From a virus (taxonomy: Duplodnaviria; Heunggongvirae; Uroviricota; Caudoviricetes): DNA of 15,913 nucleotides. The notes under the pieces were generated by a model. It saw nothing but the letters and a program-made list of their open reading frames with translations, did no database searches and was not told the DNA's origin. Where the stretch lies: the IMG/VR virus record IMGVR_UViG_2909298281_000004; one strand, written 5' to 3'. The translations under genes and the position numbers were made by a program. Shown piece after piece: positions 1 through 5,769 of the stretch (positions are counted from its first letter, which is position 1; each line of letters starts with the position of its first letter).

Positions 1-1053
1 TTACGGGGTAATGCCAACCGCTGCCGCCACTTTGTCGCCACTTGGCAGCGTTGCCAGAGGATTGAAACGGAGCGCCGTTTCCAGATGATCCGGTGCCAGA
101 TGAGCGTAACGCATAGTCATTTTTATATCGTGATGTCCGAGGATTTTTTGCAAAGCAAGGATATTTCCACCCGACATCATGAAATGCGCCGCAAACGTAT
201 GGCGCAGAACGTGTGTCAGTTGACCGCGAGGGAGCACGATTGACGTTTTTTCCATCACGGATAAAAATTGAAAATAGCAGTCTGTGAAGAAATTGAACCC
301 ATCAAGCGCCATGATCTCTTCATAAAGCTCTTTACTGATAGGGATGCTTCTGTTTTTCTTCCCCTTCGTTCTTACAAAGGTAATTCGGTATTTAGTCACC
401 TGTGATCGGGTAAGGTTTATTGCTTCTCGCCAGCGTGCGCCTGTGCTTAAGCATATCTTGACTACCAGTGCCAGAATTGGGTCCTGACGTTTGCAATCAG
501 CCAGCAGTTCAACAATCTGCTCATGGGTAAGCCATGCCATCTCTTTTTCTGCGATGGTGAATTTTCGCATGTTCTCCAGTGGGTTTGGATACGACCATTC
601 GCCCAGGCGGGATAGTTCGCTAAAAACACTACTTAGATAGCTTTGCTCCAGGTTAATGGTGACCGGGCTTGCTCCTTTCTTCCATTTCTCGCTGAAGTAG
701 ATCTCACCTGTCAGGCGTTTATCTCGATAGTGGGCAAACATTTTAGAGGTGAGATCGGTTGCAAGGGGATTGCCCAGAGCGTCAACCATCAACAGCAATT
801 TATCATAGACATGCTGCCCAGCGGTTAGAGATTTACCATGTAGTTTGAACCATAGCTCAACCACGTCTTTCAGTGTTCGACGATCCACTGATTCTCCCAG
901 CCAGGGCTTTGCTTCGGTTTCTTCCATCGTATGGCGCTCAAAAGCCAGAGCTTCGCCTTTGGTGGCGAATTGTTTACGCACACGACGCCCACTACGTCCG
1001 GCGGGGTAACATTCGCAAAGCCATTTTCCTGTGGTGAGTTTTCGTACTGCCAT
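1..1053 (-). CDS. int: Tyrosine integrase, P2/186 family
   Basis: ORF 1..1131(-) has the N-terminal and C-terminal pattern of 186/P2 integrases (MAVRKLTTGKW...KQFATKGEALAFE... and ...LTHVLRHTFAAHFMMSGGNILALQKILGHHDIKMTMRYAHLAP). I place the start at the internal ATG at 1051-1053 (MAVRK), which has a GGAGGG Shine-Dalgarno just upstream on the minus strand. The stop codon is at 1-3, so the gene is complete but attL is outside the window. Confidence 0.85.
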   Translation of the reverse strand: MAVRKLTTGKWLCECYPAGRSGRRVRKQFATKGEALAFERHTMEETEAKPWLGESVDRRTLKDVVELWFKLHGKSLTAGQHVYDKLLLMVDALGNPLATDLTSKMFAHYRDKRLTGEIYFSEKWKKGASPVTINLEQSYLSSVFSELSRLGEWSYPNPLENMRKFTIAEKEMAWLTHEQIVELLADCKRQDPILALVVKICLSTGARWREAINLTRSQVTKYRITFVRTKGKKNRSIPISKELYEEIMALDGFNFFTDCYFQFLSVMEKTSIVLPRGQLTHVLRHTFAAHFMMSGGNILALQKILGHHDIKMTMRYAHLAPDHLETALRFNPLATLPSGDKVAAAVGITP

Positions 1054-1239
1054 AAAAAATGCCCTCCAATAGAGAGCATTTTTACTGTATGTATAACCAG
1101 TGTCAATGTATGAAATCCTGCGACCATACATCTCACTGAAGCCATAATGAAGTTGGCTATTTTTTGCTATGTGAGTATGTGACTTTTGCGGTTAGCCTGC
1201 GACTCATTGTTATATTAGGCGCAGATATAAAAGCAAAAT

Positions 1240-1431
1240 TTATCGCGAGTTTTTAGTACAGATTTTTTTTGATTTACTAATAGTTCCATCATTGCAAACG
1301 AACTTTCCATCGGAGGTACAGTGAGAGACACCTCCCTTTTTCCCAGAACAAGGATAATTTTTAGCATAGGTAGTTAGTGGGTTTAATAACAAAGAGCATG
1401 ATAAAACCACAAAAAATACCTTACCAAGCAT
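1240..1431 (-). CDS. Hypothetical small secreted cysteine-rich protein (63 aa), candidate moron
   Basis: ATG at 1431(-) is preceded by a GGAGG Shine-Dalgarno at about 5 nt spacing. The N-terminus [23 protein letters not shown] looks like a signal peptide, followed by a roughly 40-aa lysine-rich segment with 4 Cys. The locus is markedly AT-rich compared with the tail genes. No homolog recognised. Confidence 0.45.
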
Positions 1432-1446
1432 AGTTTCCTCCCGGTA

Positions 1447-2016
1447 TTACCTAACGTACTTAATTGTTAAACTTATAATTTTCCCAATTATTTCAACATC
1501 TTCTATCTTGCACTCGAAGGCTCTGTTTCCACCTTCAACGAAGATTCTTCCACCGGGTAAACGAGTAATGTCGCGGATTGTTATTTCGCCATCAATACTT
1601 ATTACCCATTTACCGTCACGTATATCATCAAATTCTTTATCACAAATAAATTCAGAATTGTTATCTGTGATGACAAAAGGTTTTTTAAACGTAGAGGGTA
1701 GAAATCCCTTATCAAAAATATAAAAACCGTCTTCACGCAAGGCACCATCAGATAATACATATTTAGCAACTTCCATAGTATTTGTATTACCTGAAGTTTG
1801 CTTTGAACCATGTCCGGTTGTGAGCCAATTAAGCGAGGTGCCCGTTTCAAGGGCGCACTGGATTACCCATTCTGCTGGGAATGAGTCACGCATGTAGCGT
1901 GTGGCGAGTGTACTTTTAGAGATTCCTAAATGATCGCACAACGCCTGTCGAGTTTTGAATCCATAAGCTTCTACCATGCGCTCTATAGCGCCTCGTCCGC
2001 CTTTCTCCAAATTCAT
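1447..2016 (-). CDS. cI: Immunity repressor, 186 CI-like (about 189 aa)
   Basis: 191-aa ORF divergent from the early operon, similar in size to phage 186 CI and much longer than P2 C. The N-terminal region (ERMVEAYGFKTRQALCDHLGISKSTLATRYMRDSFPAEWVIQCALETGTSLNWL) looks like a helix-turn-helix repressor. The ORF track starts at GTG 2022; the ATG at 2014-2016 with an upstream GGAG is the more likely start. Confidence 0.75.
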   Translation of the reverse strand: MNLEKGGRGAIERMVEAYGFKTRQALCDHLGISKSTLATRYMRDSFPAEWVIQCALETGTSLNWLTTGHGSKQTSGNTNTMEVAKYVLSDGALREDGFYIFDKGFLPSTFKKPFVITDNNSEFICDKEFDDIRDGKWVISIDGEITIRDITRLPGGRIFVEGGNRAFECKIEDVEIIGKIISLTIKYVR

Positions 2017-2141: not shown

Positions 2142-2363
2142 ATGAGACCTAACATTTCAATCACTCTTACCACGCCTCATGTGACTATTGAACGCTATAG
2201 CGAGCTGACAGGGCTGTCCATCGATACCATCAATGACATGTTGGCTGACGGACGCCTTATCCGTCACCGTCTGCGCAAAGATAAAAAACGTGAAAAAGTG
2301 ATGATCAACATAGCAGCCATGACCGTTGATGCGCTTTCAGAATGCAATCTAAACCTTAATTAG
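2142..2363 (+). CDS. Apl/Cox-like excisionase and early-switch regulator (73 aa)
   Basis: First gene of the rightward operon, divergent from cI, small and basic. The call rests on position in the P2/186 genetic switch, not on recognised sequence identity. Confidence 0.55.
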
Positions 2364-2912: not shown

Positions 2913-3113
2913 ATGCTGACGAAAGAACCATCATTTGCATCGCTGCTGGTAAAACAAAGTCCGGCAATGCACTACGGTCACGGCTGGATCATGGGTGAGG
3001 ATGGTAAACGCTGGCATCCGTGCCGTTCACAAGATGAATTGCTGGCAGAACTATCTACGAAAAAACGGGGGAACAAATGGCTATTGAAGGCGCTGCGGCG
3101 ACTGTTCCATTAA
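2913..3113 (+). CDS. Small early protein, possibly Fil-like (about 66 aa)
   Basis: ORF 2883..3113; the likely start is the ATG at 2913 (MLTKEPSF...) preceded by GAGGTG. It sits where 186 carries fil, directly after cII. Function not established from sequence. Confidence 0.45.
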   Translation: MLTKEPSFASLLVKQSPAMHYGHGWIMGEDGKRWHPCRSQDELLAELSTKKRGNKWLLKALRRLFH

Positions 3114-3719: not shown

Positions 3720-3946
3720 TGGCTGATGCAATGGATCTCGTACAGCAGCGCGTTGAAGAAGAACGCCAACGCCATATCCGTGCTGCCCGTGCCAAAACGC
3801 CGGGCGTGTCCCGCGTGCTTTGCGTTGAGTGTGAAGCGCCAATTCCGCCAGCACGCCGCCGTGCCATTCCGGGTGTGCAGCTTTGCATTACCTGTCAGGA
3901 AATCGCAGAGCTGAAAGGCAAACATTACAACGGAGGTGCTGTATGA
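3719..3946 (+). CDS. TraR/DksA-family C4 zinc-finger protein (75 aa)
   Basis: Contains CVEC-x17-CITC, a four-cysteine zinc finger in a small protein, typical of phage TraR-like proteins. AGGAG lies 8 nt upstream. Confidence 0.7.
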   Translation: MADAMDLVQQRVEEERQRHIRAARAKTPGVSRVLCVECEAPIPPARRRAIPGVQLCITCQEIAELKGKHYNGGAV

Positions 3947-4153
3947 GCACCATCCTGAAATGGGCAGGAAATAAAACCGCCATAATGTCCGAACTGAAAA
4001 AGCATCTTCCTGCTGGCCCGCGACTGGTTGAACCTTTCGCGGGTTCCTGTGCAGTGATGATGGAGACGGATTATCCCAGCTATCTTGTTGCGGATATTAA
4101 TCCTGATTTAATCAACCTCTATAAAAAGGTTGCTGCTGATTGTGAGGCGTTTA
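3943..4153 (+). pseudogene. Phage dam-like N6-adenine DNA methyltransferase, N-terminal about 70 codons, truncated by IS1
   Basis: ILKWAGNK...LVEPFAGSCAVMMETDYPSYLVADINPDLINLY aligns with the N-terminus of Dam-family methyltransferases (E. coli Dam: FLKWAGGK...LVEPFVGAGSVFLNTDF..ILADINSDLISLY). The reading frame runs into the IS1 left end and stops at 4156-4158. Confidence 0.75.
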
Positions 4154-4208
4154 GGTGATGCTGCCAACTTACTGATTTAGTGTATGATGGTGTTTTTGAG
4201 GTGCTCCA

Positions 4209-4484
4209 GTGGCTTCTGTTTCTATCAGCTGTCCCTCCTGTTCAGCTACTGACGGGGTGGTGCGTAACGGCAAAAGCACCGCCGGACATCAGCGCTATCT
4301 CTGCTCTCACTGCCGTAAAACATGGCAACTGCAGTTCACTTACACCGCTTCTCAACCCGGTACGCACCAGAAAATCATTGATATGGCCATGAATGGCGTT
4401 GGATGCCGGGCAACTGCCCGCATTATGGGCGTTGGCCTCAACACGATTTTACGTCACTTAAAAAACTCAGGCCGCAGTCGGTAA
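4209..4484 (+). CDS. insA: IS1 InsA
   Basis: 91-aa [46 protein letters not shown]... matches IS1 InsA as remembered. Confidence 0.9.
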
Positions 4485-4906
4485 CCTCGCGCATACAGCC
4501 GGGCAGTGACGTCATCGTCTGCGCAGAAATGGACGAACAGTGGGGATACGTCGGGGCTAAATCGCGCCAGCGCTGGCTGTTTTACGCGTATGACAGGCTC
4601 CGGAAGACGGTTGTTGCGCACGTATTCGGTGAACGCACTATGGCGACGCTGGTGCGTCTTATGAGCCTGCTGTCACCCTTTGACGTGGTGATATGGATGA
4701 CGGATGGCTGGCCGCTGTATGAATCCCGCCTGAAGGGAAAGCTGCACGTAATCAGCAAGCGATATACGCAGCGAATTGAGCGGCATAACCTGAATCTGAG
4801 GCAGCACCTGGCACGGCTGGGACGGAAGTCGCTGTCGTTCTCAAAATCGGTGGAGCTGCATGACAAAGTCATCGGGCATTATCTGAACATAAAACACTAT
4901 CAATAA
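4403..4906 (+). CDS. insB: IS1 InsB reading frame (expressed as InsAB' transposase by -1 frameshift)
   Basis: ORF with ...[18 protein letters not shown]...[12 protein letters not shown]..., characteristic of IS1 InsB. The A6C slippery run lies at 4460-4466 near the end of insA. Confidence 0.85.
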
Positions 4907-4921
4907 GTTGGAGTCATTACC

Positions 4922-5175
4922 AGCATGGCGCAGTCCACTTTTTTAGGAAAAGGGATGCTGAATGTAATTCTCATTGTTTGCGTCGATAATGTCGGCGTAA
5001 CCGCACCACGACCATATTGCAGGATTTTCCCGTTGGGTAATTTCATCCATCCATCACCACTGGCAAAAGAGGCCATGTCCGGTATCTGATTTTCCCCTGT
5101 CCCCACATCCCGTTTTGCCGCTTCTCCCAAACCAACGTTTAAGAAAATGCAGAGGTAACAGCTAACTGGCATCAT
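4922..5175 (-). pseudogene. Fragment of a tail-fibre variable segment (alternative C-terminal cassette), truncated by IS1
   Basis: The minus-strand ORF starts at 5175 and runs into the IS1 right end. It contains DGWMKLPNGKILQYG, which resembles the motif I recall at the start of variable C-terminal domains of Mu/P1/e14-type tail fibres. It is opposite in orientation and adjacent to the invertase, as S'v is to gin in Mu. Confidence 0.4.
5122..5147. other. Candidate Gin/Hin/Pin-type recombination crossover site (single copy)
   Basis: TTCTCCCAAACC-AA-CGTTTAAGAAAA is a 26-bp imperfect dyad resembling hixL (TTCTTGAAAACC AA GGTTTTTGATAA) and gix sites as recalled. It lies just inside the 5' end of the tail-fibre fragment, about 55 bp from pin. 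No partner site is present in the window. Confidence 0.35.
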
Positions 5176-5202
5176 CTCCGGTTTTTATTCAGGGGGATGA
5201 TC

Positions 5203-5769
5203 ATGCTTATTGGCTATGTACGCGTGTCAACAAATGACCAGAACACCGATTTGCAACGTAATGCACTGAACTGCGCGGGATGTGAGCGGATTTTTGAGGA
5301 CAAAATCAGTGGCACTAAGTCCGACAGACCGGGGCTGAAAAAACTACTCAGGACACTATCGGCAGGAGACACGCTGGTTGTCTGGAAGCTGGACAGGTTG
5401 GGGCGCAGTATGCGGCATCTTGTTACGCTGATAGAAGAGTTGCGCCAGCGTGGTGTGAATTTCAGAAGCCTGACTGACAGTATTGATACCAGTACCCCAA
5501 TGGGCCGTTTCTTTTTTCATGTCATGGGTGCCCTGGCTGAAATGGAACGCGAACTGATAGTTGAACGTACCAGGGCAGGGCTGGCTGCAGCTCGTGCCAA
5601 AGGCAGAGTAGGTGGACGCCGTCCTAAGTTGACCACCGAACAGTGGGCACAGATTGGGCGTTTACTCGAGGCCGGAGAATCAATACAGCGTATTGCACTG
5701 ATTTTTGATGTAGGCGTTTCTACCATTTATAGAAAATTTCCGGCAAATAAGATCAATGAATCCCCCTGA
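5203..5769 (+). CDS. pin: Serine DNA invertase, Gin/Pin/Hin/Cin family
   Basis: MLIGYVRVSTNDQNTDLQRNAL...LVVWKLDRLGRSMRHL...FRSLTDSIDTSTPMGRFFFHVMGALAEMERELI..., near-identical in pattern to Mu Gin with the catalytic Ser in YVRVSTNDQ. Start chosen at ATG 5203 (GGGGG 6 nt upstream) rather than the ORF-track ATG at 5197. Confidence 0.9.
   Translation: MLIGYVRVSTNDQNTDLQRNALNCAGCERIFEDKISGTKSDRPGLKKLLRTLSAGDTLVVWKLDRLGRSMRHLVTLIEELRQRGVNFRSLTDSIDTSTPMGRFFFHVMGALAEMERELIVERTRAGLAAARAKGRVGGRRPKLTTEQWAQIGRLLEAGESIQRIALIFDVGVSTIYRKFPANKINESP

What the first reader, a model, noticed from the sequence alone, without database searches (positions are those of the whole stretch)
1132..1446. AT-rich ORF for a secreted, cysteine-rich, cationic peptide between int and cI
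The 63-aa ORF at 1240..1431(-) has a strong GGAGG ribosome-binding site, a signal-peptide-like N-terminus and a roughly 40-aa lysine-rich mature part with 4 Cys. It is co-oriented with cI and int, so it would be expressed in the lysogen. The locus is visibly more AT-rich than the tail genes, as expected for an acquired moron. I do not recognise the protein, so its function (exclusion, envelope modification, toxin or bacteriocin-like peptide) is open. This is the best candidate for something undescribed in the window.
Basis: partly seen in the sequence, partly recalled or inferred. Interest (0 to 1): 0.65.

Follow-up and report, generated by a model that had tools for sequence, protein, structure and literature searches.

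The report
Prophage copy of periplasmic mini-protein YdcA
The small gene between the repressor and integrase of this defective P2/186-like E. coli prophage is real and encodes an exported, disulfide-rich 40-residue protein, but it belongs to the already catalogued YdcA family, whose function is still unknown.

Summary
ORF 1240..1431(-) has a GGGAGG site 5 nt upstream and starts 15 nt after the cI stop. It encodes a 23-residue Sec-type signal peptide and a 40-aa mature part (8 Lys, 4 Cys, pI 9.6). It is under purifying selection (pN/pS 0.05-0.08). It is not undescribed: it passes the curated NCBIfam YdcA model (116 bits, cut-off 93), is PHROG 6000 and Pfam PF27300, equals RefSeq WP_001321204.1, and occurs in 654 of 5426 complete E. 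coli genomes. No function is published. Three new leads emerged. (1) The cI-ydcA-like-int order recurs in Yersinia and Pasteurellaceae P2-like prophages, including an unannotated ORF in Haemophilus phage HP2. The 32-residue core stays 75-84% identical there, while cI is 31-38% and int 41-49% identical. (2) The domain resembles each lobe of Legionella Dis2, a type IV secretion outer-membrane-cap subunit (E 2e-5). (3) It is fused N-terminally to secreted nucleases of at least three folds. The equivalent slot of Vibrio phage K139 encodes Glo, a periplasmic exclusion protein. My best guess, unproven, is a periplasmic binding module made in lysogens that interferes with incoming DNA or phage. A bacteriocin or toxin reading is unsupported.

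The parts
1240..1431 (-). CDS of the 63-aa YdcA-family pre-protein (stop codon 1240-1242)
   Evidence: ORF list. NCBIfam NF007463 scores 116.1 bits against a cut-off of 93. PHROG 6000 E 4.6e-34. pN/pS 0.05-0.08.
1363..1431 (-). Predicted Sec signal peptide, residues 1-23 ([23 protein letters not shown]), cleaved after Ala23
   Evidence: Hydrophobic core and T-Y-A at -3/-1. Ala at -1 is invariant in the family while the rest diverges. The Dis2 cryo-EM model starts 2-3 residues after the aligned AFA site. No predictor was run.
1243..1362 (-). Mature 40-aa domain [40 protein letters not shown] (4 Cys, net charge about +7)
Evidence: Invariant P, C, S, K, GG, C, F, C, DG, S, S, K, C columns. Homology to Dis2 lobes.
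1437..1442 (-). Shine-Dalgarno GGGAGG, 5 nt upstream of the ATG
   Evidence: Read directly from the sequence.
1114..1446 (-). Variable cargo slot between the int module and the cI stop codon
   Evidence: Homology to the Klebsiella and Escherichia phage int modules (95-97% identity) ends at 1111-1113. 4LV2017 carries another gene in this slot. HP2 carries a ydcA-like gene plus orf1(S).
1447..2016 (-). 186-type CI repressor, the upstream gene of the same operon (PGAP start ATG 2016; an alternative GTG lies at 2022)
   Evidence: Pfam Phage_CI_repr 2.8e-33 and Phage_CI_C 2e-28. RefSeq annotation of identical loci.
1..1053 (-). P2-type tyrosine integrase, downstream gene (likely start ATG 1053 behind GGAGGG)
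   Evidence: Pfam Int_N and Phage_integrase. RefSeq annotates 350 aa.
1055..1083 (-). 13-bp RNA hairpin whose 3' arm is the int Shine-Dalgarno, followed by U6 and the int AUG. It looks like a terminator or an RBS-sequestering element that would separate cI-ORF63 expression from int.
   Evidence: Inverted repeat I3. Fold of -18.2 kcal/mol, z -5.3. Invariant in 5 alleles apart from one loop base. Function is inferred only.

Best explanation
SHOWN:
- The ORF is a genuine, selected gene of the YdcA family (NCBIfam NF007463, Pfam PF27300, PHROG 6000).
- It starts 15 nt downstream of the 186-type cI repressor gene behind a strong ribosome-binding site, with no terminator-like site on that strand in between.

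INFERRED FROM SEQUENCE:
- It is therefore made in lysogens from the maintenance (pL) transcript.
- It is exported by Sec and cleaved after Ala23.
- It is oxidised in the periplasm to a 4.3-kDa, two-disulfide, strongly cationic mini-domain of the same kind as each lobe of Legionella Dis2.
- A conserved hairpin before int probably ends or gates that transcript.

INFERRED FUNCTION (my commitment):
- It is a lysogenic-conversion cargo that acts in the periplasm as a small binding module.
- It protects the lysogen against incoming foreign DNA, that is superinfecting phage and possibly conjugative or transforming DNA.
- It would do so by binding either the nucleic acid itself or an outer-membrane-proximal entry structure.

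I put the identity, export and operon part at about 0.9. The exclusion or anti-DNA-entry function is about 0.3. The overall confidence given refers to the full statement.
For: Family membership.

Purifying selection: 11 synonymous against 2 non-synonymous differences, the latter lying outside the conserved core.

Extreme conservation of the mature core against freely diverging signal peptides, from Enterobacterales to Moraxellaceae, Pasteurellaceae, Neisseriaceae, Burkholderiales and Rhizobiales. This points to a universal, invariant ligand.

Conserved position:
- The cI-ydcA-like-int order occurs in Yersinia (L089, L090, L101), Haemophilus parainfluenzae (L157, L161), a Pasteurellaceae MAG (L162) and phage HP2 (L001). 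Buttiauxella (L087) has cI upstream, but no int was detected there.
- In these loci the 32-residue core is 24-27/32 identical, while cI is 31-38% and int 41-49% identical.
- In HP2 the start codon overlaps the cI stop.

Precedents for this slot:
- In Vibrio phage K139 the same slot encodes Glo, annotated 'periplasmic protein; involved in phage exclusion' and described as a soluble periplasmic exclusion protein (PMC3952083).
- The cI-int slot of K139-like phages is a reported defence hotspot (PMC9122126).

Link to nucleic acids:
- The domain sits directly after the signal peptide of secreted nucleases. These include Endonuclease_NS in more than 100 clusters, SNase and PLD-type, and a weak HNH match.
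- A GIY-YIG nuclease is the neighbour gene on a Citrobacter plasmid.
- HP2's next gene in the slot is an exported OB-fold 'tRNA_anti-like' protein.

Link to a trans-envelope DNA/protein conduit: homology to Dis2 of the Dot/Icm outer-membrane cap, E 1.8e-5 to 3.1e-5. Dis2 is also the top Foldseek hit (PMC8486379).
Against: - There is no experimental datum for any family member that shows exclusion or DNA binding.
- Dis2 sits at the periphery of the outer-membrane cap. It contacts DotK, DotC and DotD rather than the channel, and its deletion has only subtle effects (PMC12716638).
- The only phenotype reported for E. coli ydcA is sensitivity to 3-hydroxypropionate, plus an acid-stress link (PMC7642389). 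That fits an envelope or stress role better.
- Nuclease fusions are equally well explained by an envelope-anchoring module.
- The ORF is not in PADLOC.
- Glo is not homologous, so the K139 parallel rests on position and localisation only.
- Genomic contexts outside prophages are heterogeneous: next to cybB, next to DUF2946 genes, on plasmids, in a T6SS cluster.
- Transcription in the lysogen and signal-peptide cleavage are inferred, not measured.
Confidence: 0.3

Rival explanations
1. Host-fitness (envelope or stress) factor. The prophage carries an extra copy of the host periplasmic protein YdcA. It binds an anionic envelope component (peptidoglycan, the outer-membrane inner leaflet or an OmpA-like protein) and improves envelope robustness of the lysogen, for example under acid or organic-acid stress. 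It would have no role against incoming DNA.
For: E. coli has a chromosomal paralogue next to cybB. Deletion of ydcA sensitises E. coli W to 3-hydroxypropionate, and ydcA is reported as acid-induced (PMC7642389). Dis2 lies next to the outer membrane and contacts the OmpA-like DotK and lipoproteins. As an anchoring module it would explain the N-terminal position in secreted nucleases and in a VasL-domain fusion. The mature domain is strongly cationic.
Against: It does not explain why the gene is kept in the cI-int slot across Peduoviridae whose hosts may already have ydcA. The phenotype evidence is a single study with no mechanism. There is no direct binding evidence.
Confidence: 0.3
2. Accessory subunit or modulator of a trans-envelope machine (type IV or type VI secretion, conjugation). 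The free domain docks onto a secretion or conjugation apparatus, as Dis2 does, and either supports or blocks it.
For: Dis2 homology. The UniRef name 'Conjugal transfer protein' for this very cluster. A YdcA-domain ORF lies inside a plasmid T6SS cluster, and one family member carries a VasL domain.
Against: No T4SS or T6SS genes are in the window or in the intact relative. Most family members are in contexts without such machines. The UniRef name has no traceable basis. Dis2 is dispensable.
Confidence: 0.1
3. Bacteriocin-like, antimicrobial or toxin peptide released by the lysogen (one of the first reader's options).
For: It is small, cationic, Cys-rich and has a leader sequence.
Against: The leader is an ordinary Sec signal peptide, which delivers only to the periplasm. 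No immunity, processing or export genes are adjacent. A chromosomal housekeeping-like paralogue exists in E. coli K-12. The same domain occurs in tandem repeats and fused to enzymes. A homologous module is a structural subunit of a secretion system.
Confidence: 0.03
4. Neutral hitch-hiker or mere translational spacer. The ORF is kept only because it lies in the cI-int operon and influences int expression, and its product has no function.
For: It lies between cI and a structured, conserved int leader. A few genomes carry frameshifted alleles (P0008, P0037, P0053). The window's prophage is itself defective.
Against: pN/pS is 0.05-0.08. The core is 75-84% identical across phages whose cI and int have diverged to 31-49%. 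The family also occurs in quite different contexts.
Confidence: 0.05

Closest known systems
E. coli K-12 YdcA (57 aa) and the YdcA family (NCBIfam PRK10040 models NF007462-NF007464, Pfam PF27300, PHROG 6000)
   Same: Same architecture: a Sec signal peptide followed by a domain of about 35-40 aa with the motif PCSG-KGG-SHC...G-F-CNDG-S-SKK-C and four Cys. The ORF scores above the curated cut-off of NF007463. YdcA is predicted to be periplasmic and has no known function (PMC11340327).
   Different: This copy is prophage-borne and sits in the cI-int operon rather than next to cybB/rydC. It matches the K-12 ydcA model NF007462 only below that model's cut-off (68 bits against 118), so it is a paralogous subfamily.
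[quoted passage not shown]
   Different: Dis2 is a two-lobe 14-kDa protein with five disulfides, built into a 13-fold secretion-system ring, and is less cationic. The window has no T4SS. The Foldseek E-value (0.55) is not significant on its own. The Dis2 papers call it Legionella-specific.
Glo of Vibrio cholerae phage K139 (periplasmic superinfection-exclusion protein in the cI-int slot)
   Same: Same phage family (Peduoviridae), same slot and orientation in the lysogenic pL operon between cI and int, and a cleavable signal peptide giving a soluble periplasmic product.
   Different: No sequence relationship: hhalign probability 7%, with only the signal peptides aligned. Glo is 137 aa and not Cys-rich. 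The exclusion activity of Glo is experimental, whereas that of ORF63 is conjecture.
Secreted nucleases carrying an N-terminal PF27300 domain (for example the 'endonuclease G' or DNA/RNA non-specific endonucleases of Methylobacter and other Methylococcales)
   Same: The same domain, with the same motifs, follows directly after the signal peptide.
   Different: ORF63 has no catalytic domain. It is the module alone.
DUF3761 (Pfam PF12587)
   Same: It is a small exported Cys-rich domain. One three-repeat family member (P0079) carries both the PF27300 and PF12587 labels in the precomputed Pfam column. The resemblance of the C-DG-S-S motif is from my own memory of the family.
   Different: ORF63 itself, and P0079 when rescanned, give no PF12587 hit in the local Pfam scan. 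The relationship was not tested by profile-profile comparison. DUF3761 also has no known function.

Membership tests
YdcA family (NCBIfam NF007463 / PRK10040.1-2; Pfam PF27300; PHROG 6000) | Score above the curated whole-protein cut-off of the family HMM | tested here: met
   116.1 bits against a cut-off of 93, E 4.2e-34, covering 5-63 of the protein and 1-58 of 58 profile positions. PHROG 6000 E 4.6e-34. PF27300 is precomputed for the cluster representative.
YdcA family | Signal peptide plus a single domain of about 35-40 aa with four conserved Cys and the PCSG-KGG-SHC / F-C-DG-S-SK-C motifs | tested here: met
   All invariant columns of the 24-sequence alignment are present in ORF63. 181 of 184 fetched members have a hydrophobic stretch upstream of the PCS motif.
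YdcA family | Periplasmic localisation and disulfide bonding of the product | not testable with these tools
   Only predicted: the signal-peptide features and, by analogy, the disulfides seen in Dis2.
Dis2-like module of type IV secretion outer-membrane caps | Detectable sequence homology to Dis2 lobes | tested here: met
   phmmer E 3.1e-5 and profile E 1.8e-5, with both lobes aligned. Part of the score comes from the signal-peptide region.
Dis2-like module of type IV secretion outer-membrane caps | Same fold | tested here: inconclusive
Dis2-like module of type IV secretion outer-membrane caps | Encoded with, or assembled into, a type IV secretion system | tested here: not met
   No T4SS genes are in the window or in the intact prophage relative.
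Prophage superinfection-exclusion proteins of the periplasmic (Glo) type | Encoded in the lysogenic operon of a temperate phage and exported to the periplasm | tested here: met
   The ORF starts 15 nt after cI, on the same strand, with no terminator-like site on that strand in between. It has a signal peptide. Expression itself was not measured.
Prophage superinfection-exclusion proteins of the periplasmic (Glo) type | Homology to Glo | tested here: not met
   hhalign probability 6.8%, with only the signal peptides aligned.
Prophage superinfection-exclusion proteins of the periplasmic (Glo) type | Reduces infection by superinfecting phage after adsorption | not testable with these tools
   This needs plating and DNA-entry assays.
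Moron (Hendrix-type autonomous cargo unit) | Presence/absence polymorphism between otherwise related phages, and deviating base composition | tested here: met
   4LV2017 has the same int (97%) but different slot content. GC is 33-37%, although the AT-rich tract also covers half of cI.
Moron (Hendrix-type autonomous cargo unit) | Own promoter and own terminator flanking the gene | tested here: not met
   There is no promoter-like site between cI and the ORF. The only - strand match near it (1427..1398, 9 of 12) lies inside the CDS, and the scan found no more sites than in shuffles. No - strand terminator follows the ORF directly. The first strong hairpin is the one at the int start.
Bacteriocin / microcin | Dedicated immunity and export or processing genes, and a leader of the double-glycine or other dedicated type | tested here: not met
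   The neighbours are cI and int only. The leader is an ordinary Sec type ending in Ala.
Bacterial lipoprotein | Conserved lipobox Cys at the end of the signal peptide | tested here: not met
   Cys12 (VLSC) is only 12 residues from the N-terminus and is not conserved in homologues.
Known anti-phage defence proteins (PADLOC-DB 2.0) | Match to a defence-system HMM | tested here: not met
   No hit at E <= 0.01.

The most novel reading that the evidence does not exclude
The free YdcA-like domain is a periplasmic nucleic-acid (or DNA-entry-apparatus) binding mini-protein. P2/186/HP1-like prophages of Enterobacterales and Pasteurellaceae would express it with their repressor to intercept foreign DNA in the periplasm. 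That would be a new, very small and widely conserved class of superinfection-exclusion or anti-horizontal-transfer factor. The same module would be what targets secreted nucleases to their substrate, and it would be the evolutionary source of the Dis2 subunit of the Legionella Dot/Icm system.
Probability: 0.2. Interest if true: 0.7.

Novelty: already known. Interest (0 to 1): 0.33.

Why it matters
As a sequence this gene is catalogued and common, occurring in about 12% of complete E. coli genomes. The finding is therefore not a discovery of a new element.

It still matters for three reasons:
- It is a 40-residue periplasmic domain that is conserved far better than the essential phage genes beside it, yet it has no assigned function.
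- It is kept in the lysogenic operon of P2-like phages from E. coli to Haemophilus.
- It connects three things I found treated separately in the papers I could search: the orphan E. coli protein YdcA, the 'Legionella-specific' secretion-system subunit Dis2, and an N-terminal module of many secreted nucleases.

If the exclusion or DNA-interception idea is right, it would be one of the smallest prophage-encoded defence factors and easy to test with a synthetic peptide. If the envelope-fitness idea is right, it would be a simple example of lysogenic conversion by a duplicated host gene.

Tried and rejected
- The local Pfam-A scan of ORF63 gave only a sub-threshold chance hit (GULLO2-like, E 0.068). 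PF27300 is not in the local copy.
- Weak PDB sequence hits to potato type-II proteinase inhibitors and lectins (E 0.2-2) were treated as Cys-rich noise.
- The weak NCBIfam lpg1681 hit (E 0.11) was not pursued.
- A lipoprotein reading was rejected, because Cys12 is not conserved.
- PADLOC gave no hit.
- A neighbour census of 75 species-level loci gave no dominant partner: CI repressor 5, cytochrome b561 5, DUF2946 6, integrase 3. Gene context alone therefore does not fix a function.
- The IMG/VR scan returned 441 relatives, but the 80 loci kept were all near-identical copies of this same prophage type. It added prevalence, not diversity.
- Literature searches for YdcA family, DUF3761, WP_001321204, PF27300, PRK10040 and phrog_6000 found no functional study.
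- Nesper et al. 1999 on K139 Glo could not be read. I cite it only through the GenBank annotation and PMC3952083.
- A communication-peptide (arbitrium-like) reading was considered and rejected. The product is a folded 4.3-kDa periplasmic domain that also occurs chromosomally and fused to enzymes.
- The pL promoter could not be located by the consensus scan.

Full report
**1. Setting**

The left end of the window is the control region of a P2/186-like (Peduoviridae) prophage of E. coli. The genes are:
- int, 1..1053 (-);
- the 63-aa ORF, 1240..1431 (-);
- a 186-type CI repressor, 1447..2016 (-);
- a Cox/Apl-like gene, 2142..2363 (+);
- cII, starting near 2396 (+).

Segment 1000-2100 is 100% identical to E. 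coli XH988 and 99.9% identical to many other strains. In those genomes the prophage lies next to rcdA, and RefSeq annotates integrase, then 'hypothetical protein' or 'YdcA family protein', then 'phage repressor protein CI'.

**2.

- The ORF, its coordinates and its strand are as stated.
- GGGAGG lies at 1437-1442, 5 nt before the ATG. The ATG is 15 nt after the cI stop.
- The product starts MLGK, followed by a 12-residue hydrophobic core, then NPLTTYA|K.
- The mature part is 40 aa, 4265 Da, pI 9.6, with 8 Lys and 4 Cys.
- GC is 33-37% in windows covering 1051-1800, against 42-59% in the rest of the first 5 kb. The AT-rich tract also includes the C-terminal half of cI.

The reading frame is under selection. 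Against two E. coli alleles that differ by 5-7% in nucleotides there are 7-11 synonymous but only 2 non-synonymous changes (pN/pS 0.05-0.08). This is similar to cI and int.

**3. It is a catalogued family**

- The protein scores 116.1 bits on NCBIfam NF007463 (PRK10040.1-2, cut-off 93). It matches the K-12 ydcA model NF007462 below that model's cut-off.
- It is PHROG 6000, 'unknown function', and Pfam PF27300 in the precomputed annotation.
- The exact sequence is on at least 1000 contigs. Source names include 'hypothetical', 'YdcA family protein' and a UniRef 'Conjugal transfer protein'.
- The ORF is present in 654 of 5426 complete E. coli genomes.
- A profile search of 1.84 billion cluster representatives finds 461 clusters.
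- E. coli K-12 YdcA is a 57-aa predicted periplasmic protein of unknown function (PMC11340327). The only phenotype I found is 3-hydroxypropionate sensitivity of a ydcA deletion, together with a reported acid induction (PMC7642389).
- No paper mentions the prophage protein or the family identifiers.

**4. Anatomy of the family**

In a 24-sequence alignment the signal peptides share no sequence, yet Ala at -1 is invariant. The mature core P-C-S-x-x-K-G-G-x-x-x-C...F-x-C-x-D-G-x-x-S-x-S-K-x-x-C is invariant or nearly so.

AlphaFold2 gives a small beta-hairpin-containing knot.

The only solved relative is Legionella Dis2 (Lpg0823).
- Sequence: phmmer E 3.1e-5 and profile E 1.8e-5. Both Dis2 lobes align to the motif.
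- It contacts DotK, DotC and DotD, is dispensable for assembly, and has only subtle translocation effects (PMC12716638).
- Those papers call Dis2 Legionella-specific. The present comparison suggests it is a tandem of YdcA-like modules.

**5. Domain fusions**

Among longer family members there are tandem arrays of two or three modules. More tellingly, there are N-terminal fusions to secreted nucleases of different folds:
- Endonuclease_NS, in more than 100 clusters at 90% identity, mostly Methylococcales;
- staphylococcal-nuclease type (P0108, E 4.8e-24);
- PLD type (P0182, E 5.1e-19);
- a weak HNH match (P0212, E 0.009).

On a Citrobacter plasmid a YdcA-domain ORF lies in a T6SS cluster next to a GIY-YIG nuclease gene. 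One long member carries a VasL domain. One three-repeat member also bears the DUF3761 label.

**6. Position in phages**

The gene order cI, ydcA-like, int recurs in:
- Yersinia alsatica, Y. aldovae and Y. nurmii;
- Haemophilus parainfluenzae;
- a Pasteurellaceae MAG;
- Haemophilus phage HP2 (and S2).

Buttiauxella has cI upstream of the gene, but no int was detected there.

In these loci cI is only 31-38% and int 41-49% identical to the window's proteins, yet the 32-residue core is 24-27/32 identical.

In HP2 the 60-aa ORF is not annotated, and its ATG overlaps the cI stop. It is followed by orf1(S), an exported OB-fold 'tRNA_anti-like' protein, and then int.

The slot is variable. Klebsiella phage 4LV2017 has a 97% identical int, but the homology ends at window position 1111-1113, and a different 349-aa gene occupies the slot.

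Homologues also sit in other places:
- in the morphogenesis region of Moraxella phages;
- in Acinetobacter and Pseudomonas phages;
- on Acinetobacter, Psychrobacter and Rhizobium plasmids.

Across 75 species-level loci no single neighbour dominates.

**7. How it is probably expressed**

The 15-nt gap after cI, the strong ribosome-binding site and the absence of a terminator-like site on the - strand between the two genes argue for co-transcription with cI from the lysogenic promoter. This is the arrangement annotated for HP2 (pL, 'maintenance of lysogeny') and K139 (PL, 'lysogenic operon'). The pL promoter itself was not located here.

The 186-nt spacer before int is significantly structured as RNA (z -3.7). 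It ends in a 13-bp hairpin (1055-1083, -18.2 kcal/mol, z -5.3). The 3' arm of that hairpin is the int Shine-Dalgarno, and it is followed by U6 and the AUG. The hairpin is invariant in five alleles except for one loop base. I infer that it terminates or gates expression of int, which would make ORF63 the last efficiently expressed gene of the maintenance transcript. None of this was measured.

**8. What it most likely does**

Shown: it is a selected, catalogued, signal-peptide-bearing mini-protein in the lysogenic operon.

Inferred: it is exported to the periplasm and disulfide-bonded.

For function, two readings are about equally supported.

(a) An exclusion or anti-DNA-entry factor.
- The equivalent slot of the related Vibrio phage K139 encodes Glo, a soluble periplasmic exclusion protein (PMC3952083).
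- That slot is a defence hotspot in K139-like phages (PMC9122126).
- The domain is repeatedly attached to secreted nucleases and neighbours exported nucleic-acid-binding or nuclease genes.
- Its relative Dis2 is part of a trans-envelope conduit.
- Many carriers are phages of naturally competent genera.
- Prophage- and ICE-encoded nucleases that degrade transforming DNA are an established precedent (PMC12378983).

(b) An envelope-anchoring or stress-fitness module.
- Dis2 is peripheral and next to the outer membrane.
- The ydcA phenotypes are stress-related.
- Anchoring explains the nuclease fusions equally well.

I commit to (a) at about 0.3, with (b) also at about 0.3. Bacteriocin or toxin, secretion-system accessory and functionless spacer readings are minor rivals. 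Glo is not homologous and the ORF is not in PADLOC, so (a) is an analogy and not a membership.

**9. Novelty and verdict**

The entity is already known as a sequence family and is routinely annotated.

The points I did not find in the literature available to me are:
- the conserved cI-int synteny across Peduoviridae;
- the Dis2 relationship;
- the recurrent nuclease fusions.

These make the family a reasonable, cheap experimental target but not a surprising one. Interest 0.33.

Noticed in passing
window 1055-1083 (- strand), within the 1054-1239 spacer: A 13-bp hairpin lies immediately before the int start codon. Its 3' arm is the int Shine-Dalgarno (GGAGGG), followed by U6 and the AUG. The fold is -18.2 kcal/mol with z -5.3, and the whole spacer has z -3.7. 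It is invariant in five E. coli alleles except for one loop base. It looks like a terminator or an RBS-sequestering element controlling int. A promoter-like TTGACA-17-AAAAAT (1106..1078, - strand) overlaps it.
   Followed up: partly
window about 3883-5769: The prophage is defective. The dam methylase ORF stops after 91 aa and is followed by IS1 (insA 4209-4484, insB 4403-4906). Next come a DNA invertase (5197-5769) and then directly the tail sheath, tube, tape measure, gpU and gpD. Replication, head and lysis genes present in the intact relative (E. coli XH988) are missing. No complete E. coli genome in the collection contains this exact junction.
   Followed up: partly
L001 (Haemophilus phage HP2, NC_003315) 2920-3102, + in locus: A 60-aa YdcA-like ORF is not annotated in the HP2 (or S2) record. 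Its ATG overlaps the cI stop codon. The next gene, orf1(S), has a signal peptide and a tRNA_anti-like OB-fold domain (Pfam E 2.8e-13).
   Followed up: yes
PDB 7MUC chain AN (Dis2) against alignment A1: Dis2 of the Legionella Dot/Icm system is described in the literature as Legionella-specific with no structural neighbours. It aligns to the YdcA-family profile (E 1.8e-5) with both of its lobes. It therefore appears to be a tandem of a module that is widespread in Proteobacteria.
   Followed up: partly
proteins P0228-P0339, P0108, P0182, P0212: The YdcA-like domain (PF27300) is fused, directly after the signal peptide, to Endonuclease_NS (more than 100 clusters, mostly Methylococcales), SNase, PLD-type and possibly HNH nucleases.
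   Followed up: partly
L165 (Citrobacter sp. TSA-1 plasmid NZ_CP053574) 5926-7727: A 133-aa ORF with a YdcA-like domain sits at the end of a type VI secretion gene cluster (after tssE). A GIY-YIG nuclease gene follows it, and a VasL-domain gene lies further downstream.
   Followed up: no
L170 (Klebsiella phage 4LV2017) 1851-2900: This phage has the same integrase module (97% identity) but a different cargo in the int-cI slot. It is a 349-aa protein with no Pfam or PADLOC hit.
   Followed up: partly
window 1215-1367 (- strand) and proteins P0008, P0037, P0053: The overlapping 50-aa ORF in another frame is not a gene. Its sequence appears as the C-terminal part of frameshifted alleles of ORF63 in a few genomes, so the gene occasionally decays.
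   Followed up: partly
window 1447-2016 (cI): This CI repressor is at most 53.5% identical to any repressor in 50,697 deposited phage genomes. None of the deposited enterobacterial phages carries the ydcA-like gene, although the cI-ORF63 module is in about 12% of complete E. coli genomes. This immunity type seems known only from prophages.
   Followed up: partly
L172 (Vibrio phage K139) 2194-3099: K139 orf2 lies between glo and cI and is annotated as a BRCT-domain protein. It gives a PADLOC candidate-system hit (PDC-S48, E 3e-8). This is consistent with that slot being a defence hotspot.
   Followed up: no
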